From Escherichia coli (GTDB lineage: Bacteria; Pseudomonadota; Gammaproteobacteria; Enterobacterales; Enterobacteriaceae): DNA of 64,000 nucleotides. How positions within the stretch are numbered: the stretch's first letter is position 1; every line of letters begins with the position of its first letter. A program made the position numbers. The stretch is from the NCBI RefSeq assembly GCF_003018255.1, contig NZ_CP027440.1, one strand, 5' to 3'. Positions 44,901 through 50,900 of the stretch are shown piece by piece.

Positions 44901-47900
44901 CTTATTTGCCGAACCATATGCGTTTATGTCTAAATGACCACCGTTTTCCAGCAACACATTGTCTGCCACGTTATTGTGGATGGAGAATGCCCCTTCACTA
45001 TTCGTACCGCTCACCGTCAAATCGTAAGTCGTTACTTTCAAAGCGGCTCCATCGTGCTGAGTAACATTTGTTGCCATACCACCTCTAACATCAAGCACGC
45101 CACCGGAATAAATTTCAATAACATCCGAGGTGCTAGTGTAATCAACAATTTGCGTACCACCAGAATAGATCTGAGTATTTTTTGCCGTTGACTTACTATC
45201 CAGAGACTGAGTTCCACCTTCAATCGTCGTGTCCAGCGCACGGCTCTCATATACTCTTTGCTCACCGCCATTTTTAATGGTGGTTGTTTCTACTGTGCTC
45301 TGTTCAACATACTGTCGACCACCATTTATGGTTGTGTTCGTCGCCAGACTTCCTTGCGTGATGTCCTGATAACCGGACTTATTTATCGTTGTACCATCAA
45401 CATGCCCCTGAGTTGTTACTGTCTGCCCTCCACCATCAATGATGGTTCCATTCGCAGTCCCCCCACTTATGTGTGAATTACCACCCTTAATTGTCGTTCC
45501 ATTGCTGATACCACCTGTATAAACGTCCTGATTGCCACTCTCGATTATTGTACCTGTGGAAATACCCCCGTCATGAATTGACTGTCTGCCCCCGTTAATG
45601 GTTGTATTATTAGCCTGCCCCACAAAATTGTTATGACCTCCTACATCTTGATATCCACCCGATTCAATAAGACTTCCATTAGATATCCCGCCATAAACAT
45701 TCTGCTGGCCATGGTTGATAATATGAGTGTTATTTGTTGTACCTCGTTCATCTACTTTTTGGCTGCCATCTACAGTCTCATCGTTTACCACACCAATAAC
45801 ATCAGGAGTGAAGGCCGCCATCCCGGGCGGGGCATATATCAAGGCAGATATCAATAAGGAAAGTACTGAGCGACGACAATAATAGGGACTGGTCCTGTTC
45901 ATAAATTTCATCCTCTGAAAAGTGAATACTGAGTAGCGTTTAAGCGACCTTAGCTTTGCTGCAACATCAGCCCACAGGCACCAGACCAGGGGATTCATCC
46001 TGAAGAGACAGCGCAAGTGTATTGTGTTCACCGCTCATCAAAGACATCATGATGAAATGATGATATTCCGCATAAGAATGAGGCATTTTTTAAACGCAGT
46101 GCGCTGAAGTGTGGTTGGATAAAAAAGTCAATCTATTCAGGAAACACGGGCGTATTCTTTTCTTTCGACAATCAGGCAGTCGGAAAAATAAAATGATTTA
46201 CATAATCGTTTCTGATGAATATCTTCTGCTCACATAAAAATCACACAATAACTCTGAGATCGCAGATTGTTTTACTTTTACAGCTTCCGTCCCCCCATTG
46301 TTGGGCAAATATAGATTGGGCCAGAGCACGAAAGTTAATACCACGTTCGCACAGCTCCTCCAACAGCACGACAAGATGCCACATACTGCGCCCCAGTCGG
46401 TTCAGTTTACAGACTAGCAGTGCGTCCCCTACCGATAATGTCCTGAGCCGTTTGTTCTGTCCGGGCCTGCTGCCACGGTTATGCGCTGAAGTGGTAACTC
46501 TGAGCACGCAGTTCTTCAGTCAGGCGTGGTGCACCGTCACCCTATTATTGCTGGGTAAGATCAAAAAACTTTCAAGCAGCTAAGGAAAGTTGAACCAGAC
46601 ATTAGATGAAATATTTCAACCAATTACAGCACCAGTTCAGACACCGCCAACTCATCAAATAAATCAAGGGGTTACGTGAAAGCGTAGCCCCTTTTACTTT
46701 GGTAGTGACAGCAAAATGGATGCAGTGTGAAGAATAATCCCGTTTACTCAATCAATAATACATATTATTTCAATCTACGTTATTATTTCTTTGTAAAAAT
46801 CGCCATTTATTTATCATTGAAAACTGCTTTTAGAACTTTATACAAGGGGACTAGTCACAACAGGACTATTCTCAACGGGCTCATCCTCAGAGGAACTATC
46901 ATCAAAGTCATCATCCATAGATGAAATACCATCGAATGGTGCCACGCCCGTGATTAGTTTTATTTTATTATTACGATCAGTCAAGACTCCATTTAAACCA
47001 TTTTCGCTGACGGATTTTAATAATTTATCATAACTCTTATTGTCATCAGGCACATTAAAAATACACGGAGTATCAACATCAAACAATGACGTTCCCCAGT
47101 TCACATATTTAATATCATAGTTACTGAAGTTCTATCCAGAAAAGAAGCATCCCTTAAAATCCAATCCACCTAAATTATATAAACCACCCTCTTCTTTTTG
47201 GAGAGCAATGTTAATTTTGGCTATCTCCCGGACATCATCGCCATTTTTGTATTTGAATACCGTTTCAAGATGTTCTCCAGACAGCTTGACTTCTGGAAAT
47301 AATTTGAAATTAAACCCTACATTATTATGTGTCAACGTAGATGAACAAAAGATGGAAAAAGCTTGCAGTGCTGAATTATAGCTATCGATTTTATCTTGAG
47401 GCTGCGCTCTTGGTAAAAACTTATAGCAACACTCATAAAAATTAAGTAGAAACTCTGATGACCTTCCATTTTTATCAAATAATACCCGCTGAAAATGCTG
47501 CACAAACTTATTCGTTTTTTCTTGAATATCTACGGTGTGTTCCTTTGACTCTGACAAAGATGAAGCCTGTTGAAGTGCATTGCTCATCTGGTTAATGAAC
47601 ATGTGCATTTCTTTAAATTTATCTCCATAGTGACCTTTAACTTGCTGCGAGTTTTTAGCTACAGGTGAAATCTTATCTATTTGGTTGTCATATAAATTAT
47701 GTGATTCCATACAGTCATTTGGCGGCGTTTCTGAAATAACACTACGTGTTCTACCTGGCTGAAGTGAAGCAACATGAAAATCACTTTTTATTATATTATC
47801 GAAAAGGGCCTGTTCATTTCTTTTAGCGGATTGAACATACTGATCAATATTATTTTCTCTCGATAATTTGTTATTTTCAGAAAACACATTTTCTTTAATC

Positions 47901-50900
47901 TCCGGTTTTAATTTAATGAGAAGATCTTCCCACTCCTACTTGCTTAAACATACTACGTCAGGCTCACCATCAGTAACTAACTCTTCATTATTATCAAAGT
48001 GTACGTTGAATACTTTTAAGTTATTTTCATCAACATCATATTTAATACGTTTTAATTGTTCTCCAGCTCCCATAATGACAAAGGCGTTGCCTTCTTGATA
48101 TATACATTCAGACATTATTTTTTGTAAAGTTTCAAGAGCACCGCGATACATCCCTGAGGCAGCTTCCTTACAAATTAAATTTATAATACTATAAGCTAGT
48201 AGCTCCATGGGGTTGGAAGAATTGTTTTCATTACAACTTCCACTACCCAAAACTGTATTAACGTTATGACCATTACTTTTACTAACTAACATTGTCTATT
48301 CCTCAGTTAATGTCTACATGGCTATGTTTAACGTTATTACTGTTTGTCATTATAAAAAACCGCTCATTTGAGACAATTGCTGACATTAACTGTTTCACTT
48401 GCTACGCATGGACTTTTTAATTAAATTAGCACAAGAATGTTAAATTTAATAAACAAAAAGTTATTTCGCTGTATGATAAAAACCAACCGTTATGATTTAT
48501 TAGTGGAATTCGTTTTTCGAGTGTTAGAAATTTATATCTAAATAGCGTTAATTAATGAGCAAAGCCAGACTCCTGTAACGCTCATAAGACTCATCTGCCT
48601 GCGGCGGGTGTTCTGGTCAGTAGTAGATATTTAAGGCGTGGCAGAGACATTTCATCCTTACTCTACGGCATTGGTCCACATACAAATCGTGGTTGTGACA
48701 CTTCACTTATCATCAGTGAGCGAACAGAGAATAGTTCAGTGATTTGAGTAATTAACCTGATTAAATGAAGAGGCATGATAAATGATAATACTCTGGCTTT
48801 ATCGTTAATTACTTAATTCCACATGTAAGCAATTTGCCCGCTTGGCATAGCGGGCATTTTTTCCAGGTACTTTTGAATGAGTACTGATGGATAAATACAT
48901 TGCAGTGGCGTGCCACGTACCAAAACACCAGCCCTCATTCGAAACCACCCACCGCACTTCTTCCTTTAAATGGCGTTAGTCATGAAATATAGACCGCCAT
49001 CGAGTACCCCTTGTACCCTTAACTCTTCCTGATACATGAATGATGATTTGGTGGCCCCTGCTGGACTTGAACCAGCGACCGGGCGATTATGAGTCGCCTG
49101 CTCTAACCACTGAACTAAAGGGCCTTAAGTATGCAATAACAATACTTATAAACCACGCAATAAACATGATGATCTTATGATGTAAATAACAGATTTTTAT
49201 GCGTTCTCATCCATCCTGGGTCGTCAATACATGCGACATAAATCCCGACACCGCTTCCATTCGCAAAGTCGATACTCGCAGTCAACAAGCATGTTAATAA
49301 TAAGCACTATCTATAGTTATCATCGATTCAATGATAGTTTGTAATGATTTTGTATCTAATAATATAACTTTATTACATTAGCTGAAGAGTTTTCGCATCA
49401 TGATGATATCTGTTACTTTTCACTCCATAAAAATAAACTTCATATAGCAATATATTCTTTTATAGAACTTATTCTGCTAATCATTAGTTTCGTATGAGCG
49501 ATTTTTGACAGTTGCCTCTCCAGACCAAATCGATAATTAAAAAAACAGATTTAAGCATTATCCTTTTCCATATGAATATTGGATAAAAGTAGGACATCTG
49601 TTTGCAATTACTTTCACAACAATTAAACATTTTTATGTTTCCGTATACACCTTATTACTCTACCATTAGAGGAACTTTATTATGTTTTCTATAAAACCAG
49701 GACCAGGAAATTTACCTATCGACAACCCCACATTGTTATCATGGAACATTACTGACGGGGATCTAAATTCCAAATTAAATACATTAGAATATCTAAACTG
49801 TATAACAAATATTATTAATGCTTGTGGAGTTTATCCTCAGGATTTAAAAGACAGAGAAATTATATCAACTTTTCACGCAGAAAAAGTCATTAATGATCTG
49901 TTAAAAAACGATTATAAAATTTCCCTTTCTCCAGATACAACTTACCGAGAGCTGAATAAAGCTGCACAGCGTAGCATTACAGCGCCAGACAGGATAGGAG
50001 AAGGGAAAACATGGGTTTATCAACGAGATACAATGGTTGAAAGAGGTGATAACAGAGGCGTTCATCAGTATGGTCCAGCTGAACATTTCACTCACATTAT
50101 ATCTGACAAACCATCCCCAAAAGATAAGTATGTTGCATATGCTATTAACATTCCTGACTATGAGCTAGCAGCCGATGTATATAATATTAACGTGACGTCA
50201 CCTTCCGGACAGCAAGAAACATTTAAAATACTAATCAATCCAGAACATCTACGGCAAACACTTGAGCGTAAATCTCTTACTGCTGTTCAGAAATCACAAT
50301 GTGAAATCATCACCCCCAAAAAACCTGGCGAAGCGATTCTTCATGCTTTTAATGCCACCTACCAGCAAATCAGGGAAAATATGTCTGAGTTTGCACGTTC
50401 CCATTATGGGTATATACAAATTCCTCCAGTGACAACTTTCCGCGCCGACGGACCAGAAACTCCCGAAGAAGAAAAAGGTTACTGGTTTCACGCTTATCAA
50501 CCCGAAGATCTTTGTACCATCCATAATCCAATGGGAGATTTGCAGGATTTTATCGCATTGGTTAAAGATGCTAAAAAATTTGGTATCGATATCATTCCTG
50601 ATTATACCTTTAACTTTATGGGAATTGGGGGTAGTGGTAAAAATGACCTGGATTATCCCTCTGCTGATATACGAGCGAAGATCAGTAAAGATATAGAAAG
50701 TGGTATCCCTGGCTATTGGCAAGGTCAGGTTTTGATTCCATTTACTATAGATCCAGTAACAAAAGAACGTAAACAAATCCATCCAGAAGATATACATCTC
50801 ACTGCAAAAGACTTTGAAACAAGTAAAGATAACATCTCTAAGGATGAATGGGAAAACCTCCATGCATTAAAAGAAAAGCGTTTAAATGGAATGCCTAAAA

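What the first reader, a model, noticed from the sequence alone, without database searches (positions are those of the whole stretch)
46838..48292. One 1.45 kb reading frame interrupted only by two in-frame amber (TAG) codons
Three consecutive minus-strand ORFs (118, 251 and 88 aa) are in the same frame. The only interruptions are TAG at 47936-47938 (…VVCLSK*EWEDLLIKLKPEIKENVFSEN…) and TAG at 47132-47134 (…FKGCFFSG*NFSNYDIKYVNWGT…). There are no frameshifts and both stops are amber. It could be a decaying pseudogene (K-12 ypjB/ypjC region), or a roughly 480-aa protein produced only with an amber suppressor. The AT-rich composition suggests horizontally acquired DNA.
Basis: seen in the sequence. 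Interest (0 to 1): 0.5.

Follow-up and report, generated by a model that had tools for sequence, protein, structure and literature searches.

The report
Dead ypjCB gene, two amber mutations
This is an ordinary, already-annotated broken copy of the E. coli accessory gene ypjCB, in which two glutamine codons (CAG) have mutated to stop codons (TAG); it is not a gene that depends on stop-codon suppression.

Summary
Window 46838-48292 (minus strand) is one 485-codon frame broken only by TAG at codon 119 (47936-47938) and TAG at codon 387 (47132-47134). The frame is the gene ypjCB (NCBIfam NF050179, 943 bits, full length). RefSeq already annotates it as a pseudogene with 'internal stop' in strain JNE23-011, which is 100% identical here. 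Many other E. coli carry an uninterrupted 444-492 aa gene at the same locus, and in those I fetched both TAG positions are CAG (Gln), except that one allele group has ACG at codon 119. Each stop is therefore a single C-to-T change. TAG119 is in 56 of 5,426 complete genomes and TAG387 in only 2. K-12 has a third CAG-to-TAG at codon 161, which produced the 'ypjC/ypjB' split. Other strains carry 1-nt frameshifts, and second lesions sit on alleles that were already broken. No amber suppressor was found: glnV/glnX are wild type in the identical genome, and no supF, supD, supP or supU allele occurs there. The two downstream segments have no convincing ribosome-binding sites. Verdict: pseudogene decay of a fast-evolving, low-GC, Escherichia-restricted orphan gene. 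It is already known and of low interest. The function of intact YpjCB remains unknown.

The parts
46838..48292 (-). ypjCB pseudogene: one 484-codon reading frame plus TAA, interrupted by two amber codons
   Evidence: Searches show the frame. NCBIfam NF050179 Ecoli_YpjCB scores 943.4 bits (cut-off 650) over residues 1-484. Pfam finds DUF5507 at 1-160 and DUF5508 at 234-484. RefSeq annotates it in the 100%-identical JNE23-011 as 'ypjCB, YpjCB family protein, pseudogene, internal stop'.
47936..47938 (-). Amber codon 119 (TAG), derived from CAG (Gln) by a C-to-T transition
   Evidence: Orthologues of the same allele type and of K-12, O157 and O145 have CAG here; another allele group has ACG. The exact 61-mer with TAG occurs in 56 of 5,426 complete genomes. 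It is shared with SMS-3-5 and L017-L019.
47132..47134 (-). Amber codon 387 (TAG), derived from CAG (Gln) by a C-to-T transition; a recent second hit
   Evidence: All 12 other fetched alleles have CAG at this position. The exact 61-mer with TAG occurs in only 2 genomes, JNE23-011 and JNE112863, while about 1,580 genomes match with 1-3 mismatches.
48300..48304 (-). Shine-Dalgarno-like GAGGA, 7 nt upstream of the ATG at 48292; the only convincing ribosome-binding site of the three segments
   Evidence: One search gives the upstream contexts. The GTG at 47887 has a GGAG 12 nt away, which is too far, and the GTG at 47104 has none.
48349..48376 (-). Sigma-70 promoter-like site (TTGTCT-16-TATAAT, 10 of 12 matches) upstream of the gene
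   Evidence: This is a consensus match only, and such sites were not enriched over shuffles.
46666..46693 (.). 12-bp GC-rich hairpin about 145 nt downstream of the TAA; a possible terminator
   Evidence: The scan reported it on the + strand. Its use on the minus strand is inferred.
49049..49124 (-). Context: tRNA ileY (anticodon CAT), upstream neighbour; not a suppressor
   Evidence: RefSeq annotates it as tRNA-Ile.
46241..46507 (-). Context: remnant of a Pin-like serine recombinase gene between ypjCB and ypjA
   Evidence: The ORF is listed. It is annotated 'recombinase family protein' in JNE23-011 and as an incomplete pseudogene in most other strains.

Best explanation
The region is a pseudogene of ypjCB. 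This is an accessory, low-GC, Escherichia/Shigella-restricted gene of unknown function that encodes a protein of about 484 aa when intact. In this lineage a C-to-T transition first changed Gln codon 119 (CAG) to TAG. That allele is inherited and also found in 55 other complete genomes. The allele later recombined in its 3' third. A second C-to-T transition then changed Gln codon 387 to TAG, and this second change is seen only in this strain and one sister strain. What is shown: the lesions, their derived state, their frequencies, and the absence of the classical suppressor alleles. What is inferred: ribosomes starting at the ATG at 48292 terminate via RF1 at codon 119 and at most release a 118-aa N-terminal fragment. 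The downstream 365 codons are essentially untranslated, because the internal GTGs lack ribosome-binding sites and double read-through would be vanishingly rare. No full-length YpjCB should be made.
For: (1) The frame matches the curated YpjCB model end to end, and RefSeq already flags it as a pseudogene with an internal stop.

(2) Uninterrupted orthologues of 444-492 aa lie at the same position between ileY and the recombinase remnant and ypjA in 12 of 19 loci sampled evenly down the hit list. Hundreds of full-length 484-492 aa proteins are in the protein collection.

(3) Both TAGs align to CAG in orthologues.

(4) TAG119 is in 56 and TAG387 in 2 of 5,426 genomes, so neither stop is conserved.

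(5) Other lineages broke the same gene in other ways. K-12-type CAG-to-TAG at codon 161 is in 1,232 genomes. There are three independent 1-nt frameshifts, in L002, L020 and L024.

(6) Second lesions sit on alleles that were already dead: the window has 119+387, SMS-3-5 has 119+161, and L020 has 161 plus a frameshift. L017-L019 carry TAG119 alone on the same 5' allele as the window.

(7) No suppressor was found. glnX/glnV read CTG and glnU/glnW read TTG in JNE23-011. No genome has a supF allele. The only supD allele is in DSM 498. There is no supU allele and no full-length supP allele. The window's own tRNAs are Glu-TTC, tmRNA and ileY.

(8) Only the first ATG has a good SD sequence.
Against: There are no expression, ribosome-profiling or proteomic data for this strain. 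The remaining tRNA genes of the genome were not all read, so an unusual suppressor cannot be strictly excluded. The 118-aa N-terminal fragment could still be made and could have some activity: deleting the K-12 160-aa 'ypjC' fragment gave a biofilm colonisation phenotype in PMC3646849. All three nonsense lesions seen in the species are CAG-to-TAG, which is mildly unusual. Even intact alleles evolve with dN/dS of 0.45-1.0, so constraint on this gene is weak everywhere and 'functional versus dead' is less sharp than for a core gene.
Confidence: 0.93

Rival explanations
1. A full-length protein of about 484 aa is made by amber suppression or programmed read-through of both TAG codons. Because both were Gln codons, a supE-type tRNA would restore the wild-type protein.
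For: Both stops are amber and both derive from CAG, so Gln insertion would be restorative. There are no frameshifts. K-12's lesion is also CAG-to-TAG.
Against: glnV/glnX have wild-type CTG anticodons in the identical genome. No supF, supD, supU or supP allele is present there. The stops are not conserved: they occur in 56 and 2 of 5,426 genomes, whereas programmed read-through sites are conserved. Other strains inactivate the same gene by frameshifts that no suppressor could rescue. From general knowledge, unprogrammed UAG read-through in E. coli is of the order of 0.1-1% per site, so two sites would give about 1e-4 to 1e-6 of normal yield.
Confidence: 0.02
2. The segments are, or have become, separate functional genes. 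In particular, the 118-aa N-terminal fragment would be a working truncated protein, as has been assumed for K-12 'YpjC'.
For: The first segment keeps the native promoter-like site, SD and ATG. In the low-confidence AF2 model the helices at 28-61 and the beta-sheet at 65-115 end just before codon 119. Deletion of K-12 ypjC had a phenotype in mixed biofilms (PMC3646849).
Against: Orthologues show one continuous gene, not three. The second and third segments lack ribosome-binding sites. The truncation points differ between lineages (119, 161, frameshifts near 158, 203 and 223), which does not suggest selection for one particular fragment. Constitutive expression of ypjC did not change the K-12 phenotype. 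The model has pLDDT of 40-55 in this region.
Confidence: 0.08
3. Loss of ypjCB is adaptive: inactivating alleles were repeatedly selected rather than drifting neutrally.
For: At least six independent inactivating events appear in a small sample. The TAG161 allele is very common, at 1,232 genomes. 7 of 19 evenly sampled loci are pseudogenes.
Against: dN/dS of 0.45-1.0 among intact alleles already indicates weak constraint, which is enough to explain frequent decay. The high count for TAG161 may reflect clonal inheritance within phylogroup A and sampling bias, since no phylogenetic correction was done. This rival concerns why the gene died, not what the feature is.
Confidence: 0.12
4. The stops are sequencing or assembly errors.
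For: None.
Against: Two independent complete assemblies carry the identical gene. TAG119 is found in 56 assemblies from different laboratories.
Confidence: 0.005

Closest known systems
E. coli K-12 ypjC / ypjB (b2650 / b2649), now merged by NCBI as the pseudogene 'ypjCB'
   Same: It is the same gene at the same locus, between ileY and the pin remnant and ypjA. It has the same kind of lesion, a CAG-to-TAG amber splitting one frame, and the same RefSeq treatment as a pseudogene with an internal stop.
   Different: The K-12 amber is at codon 161, not at 119 or 387. The K-12 allele is only about 91% identical, has a 105-nt in-frame deletion in the central region, and ends at a different stop. In the window codon 161 is still CAG.
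ypjCB pseudogene alleles of SMS-3-5, 2016C-3878, MRY15-117 and LWY24
   Same: They share the identical TAG119 mutation. L017-L019 share 99-100% identity with the window over nt 1-1050.
   Different: They lack TAG387. SMS-3-5 has TAG161 as well. Their 3' ends belong to another allele type (86-91% identical), so the window allele is a recombinant.
Intact YpjCB proteins (for example WP_000961340.1, WP_001521105.1, and O157 Sakai ECs_3517 'ypjB')
   Same: They have the same length class (449-492 aa), 73-93% protein identity to the repaired window protein, and the same synteny.
   Different: They are uninterrupted and have Gln at position 387. Position 119 is Gln in most, but Thr (ACG) in the WP_000961340.1 / WP_001521105.1 allele group.
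Genes that need amber suppression or programmed UAG read-through (phage amber mutants grown on supE/supF hosts; pyrrolysine genes of methanogens)
   Same: The only similarity is the superficial one of in-frame TAG codons in an otherwise open frame.
   Different: There is no suppressor tRNA, and the TAGs are not conserved. Frameshifted alleles of the same gene exist. No Pyl tRNA is present in the window.

Membership tests
YpjCB family (NCBIfam NF050179, Ecoli_YpjCB) | Full-length match to the family HMM above the curated cut-off of 650 bits | tested here: met
   943.4 bits, E 2e-284, residues 1-484 against profile positions 1-465 of 465.
YpjCB family (NCBIfam NF050179, Ecoli_YpjCB) | Conserved chromosomal position: ileY tRNA, then ypjCB, then recombinase remnant, then ypjA | tested here: met
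   The order is the same in the window and in all fetched loci where the flanks were shown.
YpjCB family (NCBIfam NF050179, Ecoli_YpjCB) | Uninterrupted coding sequence (a functional member) | tested here: not met
   There are two internal TAG codons. The locus is a pseudogene member of the family, not a protein-coding one.
Pseudogene by nonsense mutation | Intact orthologues exist at the same locus, and the stop is the derived state of a sense codon | tested here: met
   12 fetched orthologues are intact. In those aligned, position 387 is CAG and position 119 is CAG or ACG. Each TAG is a single C-to-T change.
Pseudogene by nonsense mutation | The stops are rare and lineage-specific, not conserved | tested here: met
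   TAG119 is in 56 and TAG387 in 2 of 5,426 complete genomes. The gene is present in 3,080.
Pseudogene by nonsense mutation | Further disabling lesions accumulate on inactivated alleles, and other lesion types occur in the population | tested here: met
   The window has 119+387, SMS-3-5 has 119+161, L020 has 161 plus a -1 frameshift, and L002 and L024 have frameshifts.
Pseudogene by nonsense mutation | No full-length product in vivo | not testable with these tools
   This needs proteomics or ribosome profiling of the strain.
Suppressor-dependent or programmed read-through gene | A cognate amber-suppressor tRNA (CUA anticodon) in the same genome | tested here: not met
   glnX/glnV are CTG and glnU/glnW are TTG in JNE23-011. 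Exact supF, supD, supU and supP alleles are absent from that genome. The window's tRNAs are not suppressors. The other tRNA genes were not read individually.
Suppressor-dependent or programmed read-through gene | The in-frame stop codon is conserved among orthologues | tested here: not met
   Orthologues have sense codons, CAG or at codon 119 also ACG. See also the counts.
Three independent genes | Each segment has its own start codon with a ribosome-binding site, and orthologues keep them separate | tested here: not met
   Only the ATG at 48292 has an SD at proper spacing. Orthologues are single ORFs.

The most novel reading that the evidence does not exclude
All three nonsense lesions found in ypjCB across E. 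coli (codons 119, 161 and 387) are CAG-to-TAG. Together they affect at least about 1,290 of about 3,080 carrier genomes. The evidence does not exclude that amber-at-Gln alleles are favoured. For example, near-cognate tRNA-Gln(CUG) read-through of a single UAG would restore the native residue and leave a trickle of authentic protein, giving a crude way to turn down a costly gene. Alternatively, loss of ypjCB may be positively selected. For the window's own allele, which has two ambers, this would still amount to a null.
Probability: 0.05. Interest if true: 0.4.

Novelty: already known. Interest (0 to 1): 0.08.

Why it matters
It matters little. The locus is a textbook case of pseudogene decay in a weakly constrained accessory gene, and NCBI's annotation pipeline already recognises it with a dedicated 'exception' model named YpjCB. 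There are three useful by-products. First, the K-12 genes 'ypjC' and 'ypjB', and the Pfam families DUF5507 and DUF5508 whose lengths match them, are fragments of one gene split by an amber codon. Phenotypes reported for 'ypjC' should be read in that light. Second, ypjCB is a species-restricted orphan with mosaic, highly divergent alleles and frequent independent inactivation. Third, exact-allele searches suggest classical amber suppressor alleles are essentially absent from 5,426 complete E. coli genomes. In-frame TAGs in natural isolates should therefore be read as null mutations by default.

Tried and rejected
- **Function by structure.** An AlphaFold2 model was built from a 26-sequence alignment that is shallow because all members are Escherichia or Shigella. 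It was poor: mean pLDDT 43.9, with only residues 280-410 reaching 70-84. Foldseek against the PDB gave nothing meaningful (best E 7.7e-3, TM <= 0.13). A profile search of PDB sequences gave no hit at E <= 1.
- **Remote homologues.** An exhaustive phmmer search of 1.84 billion cluster representatives found one full-length cluster plus fragments. Two weak hits were to repeat proteins. One is a PA14-repeat protein (E 4.5e-8, query 331-394). The other is a 3,960-aa adhesin-like protein with MBG-like repeats. These are too thin to assign a function. By eye, residues 376-412 show an xxFxx pentapeptide-like period, but Pfam reported no Pentapeptide match, so I treat this only as a lead.
- **Mobile-element origin.** There is no homologue in 50,697 phage records. 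The plasmid hits are chromosomes mislabelled as plasmids plus one partial 60%-identical fragment.
- **RNA features.** Rfam finds only tmRNA and ileY in 40.5-52.5 kb.
- **Amber bias.** I considered whether 'both stops amber' is itself significant. The probability is 0.07-0.25 depending on the transition bias assumed, so it is not significant, especially as the finding was selected for this property.
- **Suppressor query error.** My first supP query was actually the leuZ backbone. I repeated it with leuX.
- **Literature.** No paper in the searchable library treats ypjCB as such. Mentions of ypjC are incidental, apart from PMC3646849.
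Full report
**Observation**

On the minus strand, window 48292 to 46838 translates as 485 codons. The only internal stops are TAG at codon 119 (47936-47938) and TAG at codon 387 (47132-47134), and the frame ends in TAA. The second and third simply begin at the first internal GTG after each stop. This frame has 3 stops in total, the other five frames of the same stretch have 18-87, and 2,000 composition-matched shuffles give 38.4 +/- 5.7 with a minimum of 19.

**Identity**

The stretch is 100% identical to E. coli JNE23-011 (NZ_AP045067.1). 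Only two complete genomes are at least 99% identical, and 3,080 of 5,426 complete E. coli genomes carry a homologous locus, mostly at 90-95% identity. RefSeq annotates the JNE23-011 copy as 'ypjCB, YpjCB family protein', a pseudogene with an internal stop.

With the stops masked, the protein matches NCBIfam NF050179 (Ecoli_YpjCB) end to end at 943 bits against a cut-off of 650. It also matches Pfam DUF5507 (1-160) and DUF5508 (234-484). The sequence is not K-12, however, because the K-12 allele is only about 91% identical.

**Orthologues**

I fetched 25 loci. Of 19 taken evenly down the hit list, 12 have an uninterrupted ypjCB of 444-492 aa and 7 are pseudogenes. The protein collection holds hundreds of full-length 484-492 aa versions from E. 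coli and Shigella.

In a codon-level alignment TAG387 aligns to CAG (Gln) in every other allele. TAG119 aligns to CAG in the related alleles and to ACG in one divergent allele group. Each stop is therefore one C-to-T transition of a Gln codon.

**Frequency and history**

I searched exact 61-mers centred on each stop. One mismatch drops identity below 99%, so the top identity band counts exact matches.

| Allele | Complete genomes carrying it (of 5,426) |
|---|---|
| TAG119 | 56 |
| TAG387 | 2 (JNE23-011 and JNE112863) |
| TAG161 (K-12 type) | 1,232 |

- JNE112863 has a gene identical to the window's.
- Strains 2016C-3878, MRY15-117 and LWY24 carry TAG119 alone.
- Block-wise identity shows the window allele is 99-100% identical to that allele type over nt 1-1050. 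It then switches to other allele types, for example 100% identity to L006 over nt 1201-1350.

The most economical history is this. TAG119 arose once and was inherited. The allele then recombined in its 3' third. TAG387 is a recent second hit.

**Other lesions in the species**

- K-12's split into 'ypjC' and 'ypjB' is a third CAG-to-TAG, at codon 161, carried by 1,232 complete genomes.
- SMS-3-5 has both TAG119 and TAG161.
- Three independent 1-nt deletions occur: L002 in AAAAGAAA, L020 in an A8 run on top of TAG161, and L024 by loss of the C in AAAACAAAA.

Multiple lesion types, and second lesions on alleles that were already broken, are the signature of ordinary pseudogene decay. No suppressor could rescue the frameshifted alleles.

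**Suppressor test**

- The window contains only tRNA-Glu(TTC), tmRNA and ileY(CAT).
- I located the glnX-glnV-metU-glnW-glnU-leuW-metT operon in JNE23-011. ARAGORN reads CTG, CTG, TTG and TTG for the four tRNA-Gln genes, so there is no supE or supB.
Wild-type genes matched with exactly the expected single mismatch, which validates the queries.
  - supF: no genome has an exact allele.
  - supD: only DSM 498.
  - supU: none.
  - supP on leuX: no full-length exact match.
- JNE23-011 therefore lacks all the classical amber suppressors. The other tRNA genes were not read one by one.

**Translation signals**

The ATG at 48292 is preceded by GAGGA at a 7-nt spacing and by a promoter-like TTGTCT-16-TATAAT. 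The GTG at 47887 has a GGAG 12 nt upstream, and the GTG at 47104 has nothing. The three segments are not independent genes.

**Mechanism**

What is shown: two derived nonsense mutations in a gene that is intact elsewhere, with no suppressor. What I infer:

- Translation ends at codon 119 via RF1 and yields at most a 118-aa fragment.
- The remaining 365 codons are silent.
- From general knowledge, unprogrammed UAG read-through is around 0.1-1% per site, so passing both sites would give about 1e-4 to 1e-6 of normal yield.

**Nature of the intact gene**

- It is an orphan. An exhaustive search of 1.84 billion cluster representatives found one full-length cluster, many fragments, and two weak repeat-protein hits.
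- There is no phage homologue and no true plasmid copy.
- Alleles are 85-97% identical at the DNA level, are mosaic, and differ by in-frame indels in the central region.
- Pairwise dN/dS is 0.45-1.0, so constraint is weak even where the frame is open.
- The AF2 model was poor (pLDDT 44) and fold and sequence searches of the PDB were empty. Function remains unknown.
- The only experimental hint is that a K-12 ypjC deletion made biofilms more open to colonisation by a pathogen, while constitutive expression had no effect (PMC3646849).

**Is 'amber only' meaningful?**

In the repaired gene 226 single-base changes give a stop. The chance that two random nonsense hits are both amber is 0.07-0.25 depending on transition bias. 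The chance that any one nonsense hit is CAG-to-TAG is 0.05-0.42. Because the finding was selected for its two ambers, only K-12's third amber is independent evidence, and that is unremarkable. Frameshift alleles exist too. I keep a 5% reading that amber-at-Gln alleles or loss of the gene are selected.

**Verdict**

The feature is already known and annotated. Interest is low.

Noticed in passing
window 40805-41167 (+) and 41328-46031 (-): The tmRNA gene ssrA lies only about 160 nt from the end of ypjA. From my own knowledge, K-12 has the CP4-57 prophage inserted at ssrA, so this strain appears to lack that prophage and the ypjA-ypjCB-ileY block is a separate island.
   Followed up: partly
window 49049-49124 (-): ARAGORN calls this tRNA 'Met, anticodon CAT', while RefSeq annotates it as tRNA-Ile (ileY, presumably lysidine-modified). 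This is the same mis-annotation issue noted for strain Crooks in PMC3032704. O157 Sakai's record also labels it tRNA-Met.
   Followed up: partly
window 46241-46507 (-): An 88-aa fragment of a Pin-like serine recombinase is annotated as an intact CDS (WP_071601966.1) in JNE23-011 and JNE112863. At the same position in almost every other strain it is an incomplete pseudogene (versus 7, 8, 11-21).
   Followed up: no
window ~46000-52000, including 49682-51934 (+): A low-GC block (33-42% GC against 50-58% in the flanks) holds ypjCB, ileY and a 750-aa 'alpha amylase C-terminal domain' gene. That amylase-like gene is itself a pseudogene with an internal stop in K-12 and KL53, and IS elements or other genes replace it in some strains.
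   Followed up: no
L003 (K-12) codon 161; Pfam PF17612 and PF17621: DUF5507 (model length 160) and DUF5508 (model length 263) match the two K-12 fragments YpjC and YpjB created by the amber at codon 161. The 'two-domain' architecture therefore looks like an artefact of a pseudogene split rather than true domain boundaries.
   Followed up: partly
NZ_CP193717.1 (E. coli DSM 498) 2931840-2931929: This is the only one of 5,426 complete genomes with an exact supD-type serU allele (CTA anticodon). The site carries no tRNA annotation in the record. No complete genome has a supF, supU or full-length supP allele.
   Followed up: no
repaired protein residues 331-412 (window ~47057-47302): There is weak but significant similarity (E 4.5e-8) to the junction between PA14 repeats of a 799-aa protein (P0154), and a 5-residue xxFxx periodicity in GLDFK GCFFS GQNFS NYDIK YVNWG TSLFD. 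TAG387 falls inside this stretch. Pfam reports no PA14 or Pentapeptide match.
   Followed up: partly
ypjCB alleles L002-L013 and L017: Allelic divergence is unusually high for E. coli (85-97% nt identity) with clear mosaic blocks, in-frame indels of 15-105 nt in the central and C-terminal parts, and dN/dS of 0.45-1.0. This could reflect very weak constraint or diversifying selection.
   Followed up: partly
NZ_MN732922.1 (245-kb E. coli plasmid) 128161-128520: A partial ypjCB-like fragment (residues 168-322, 60.6% identity) lies on a large plasmid. It is the only hit not on a chromosome.
   Followed up: no
NZ_CP141089.1, NZ_CP134663.1, NZ_OL790696.1 in the plasmid collection: Three records of 4.8-4.9 Mb in PLSDB are evidently chromosomes filed as plasmids.
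   Followed up: no
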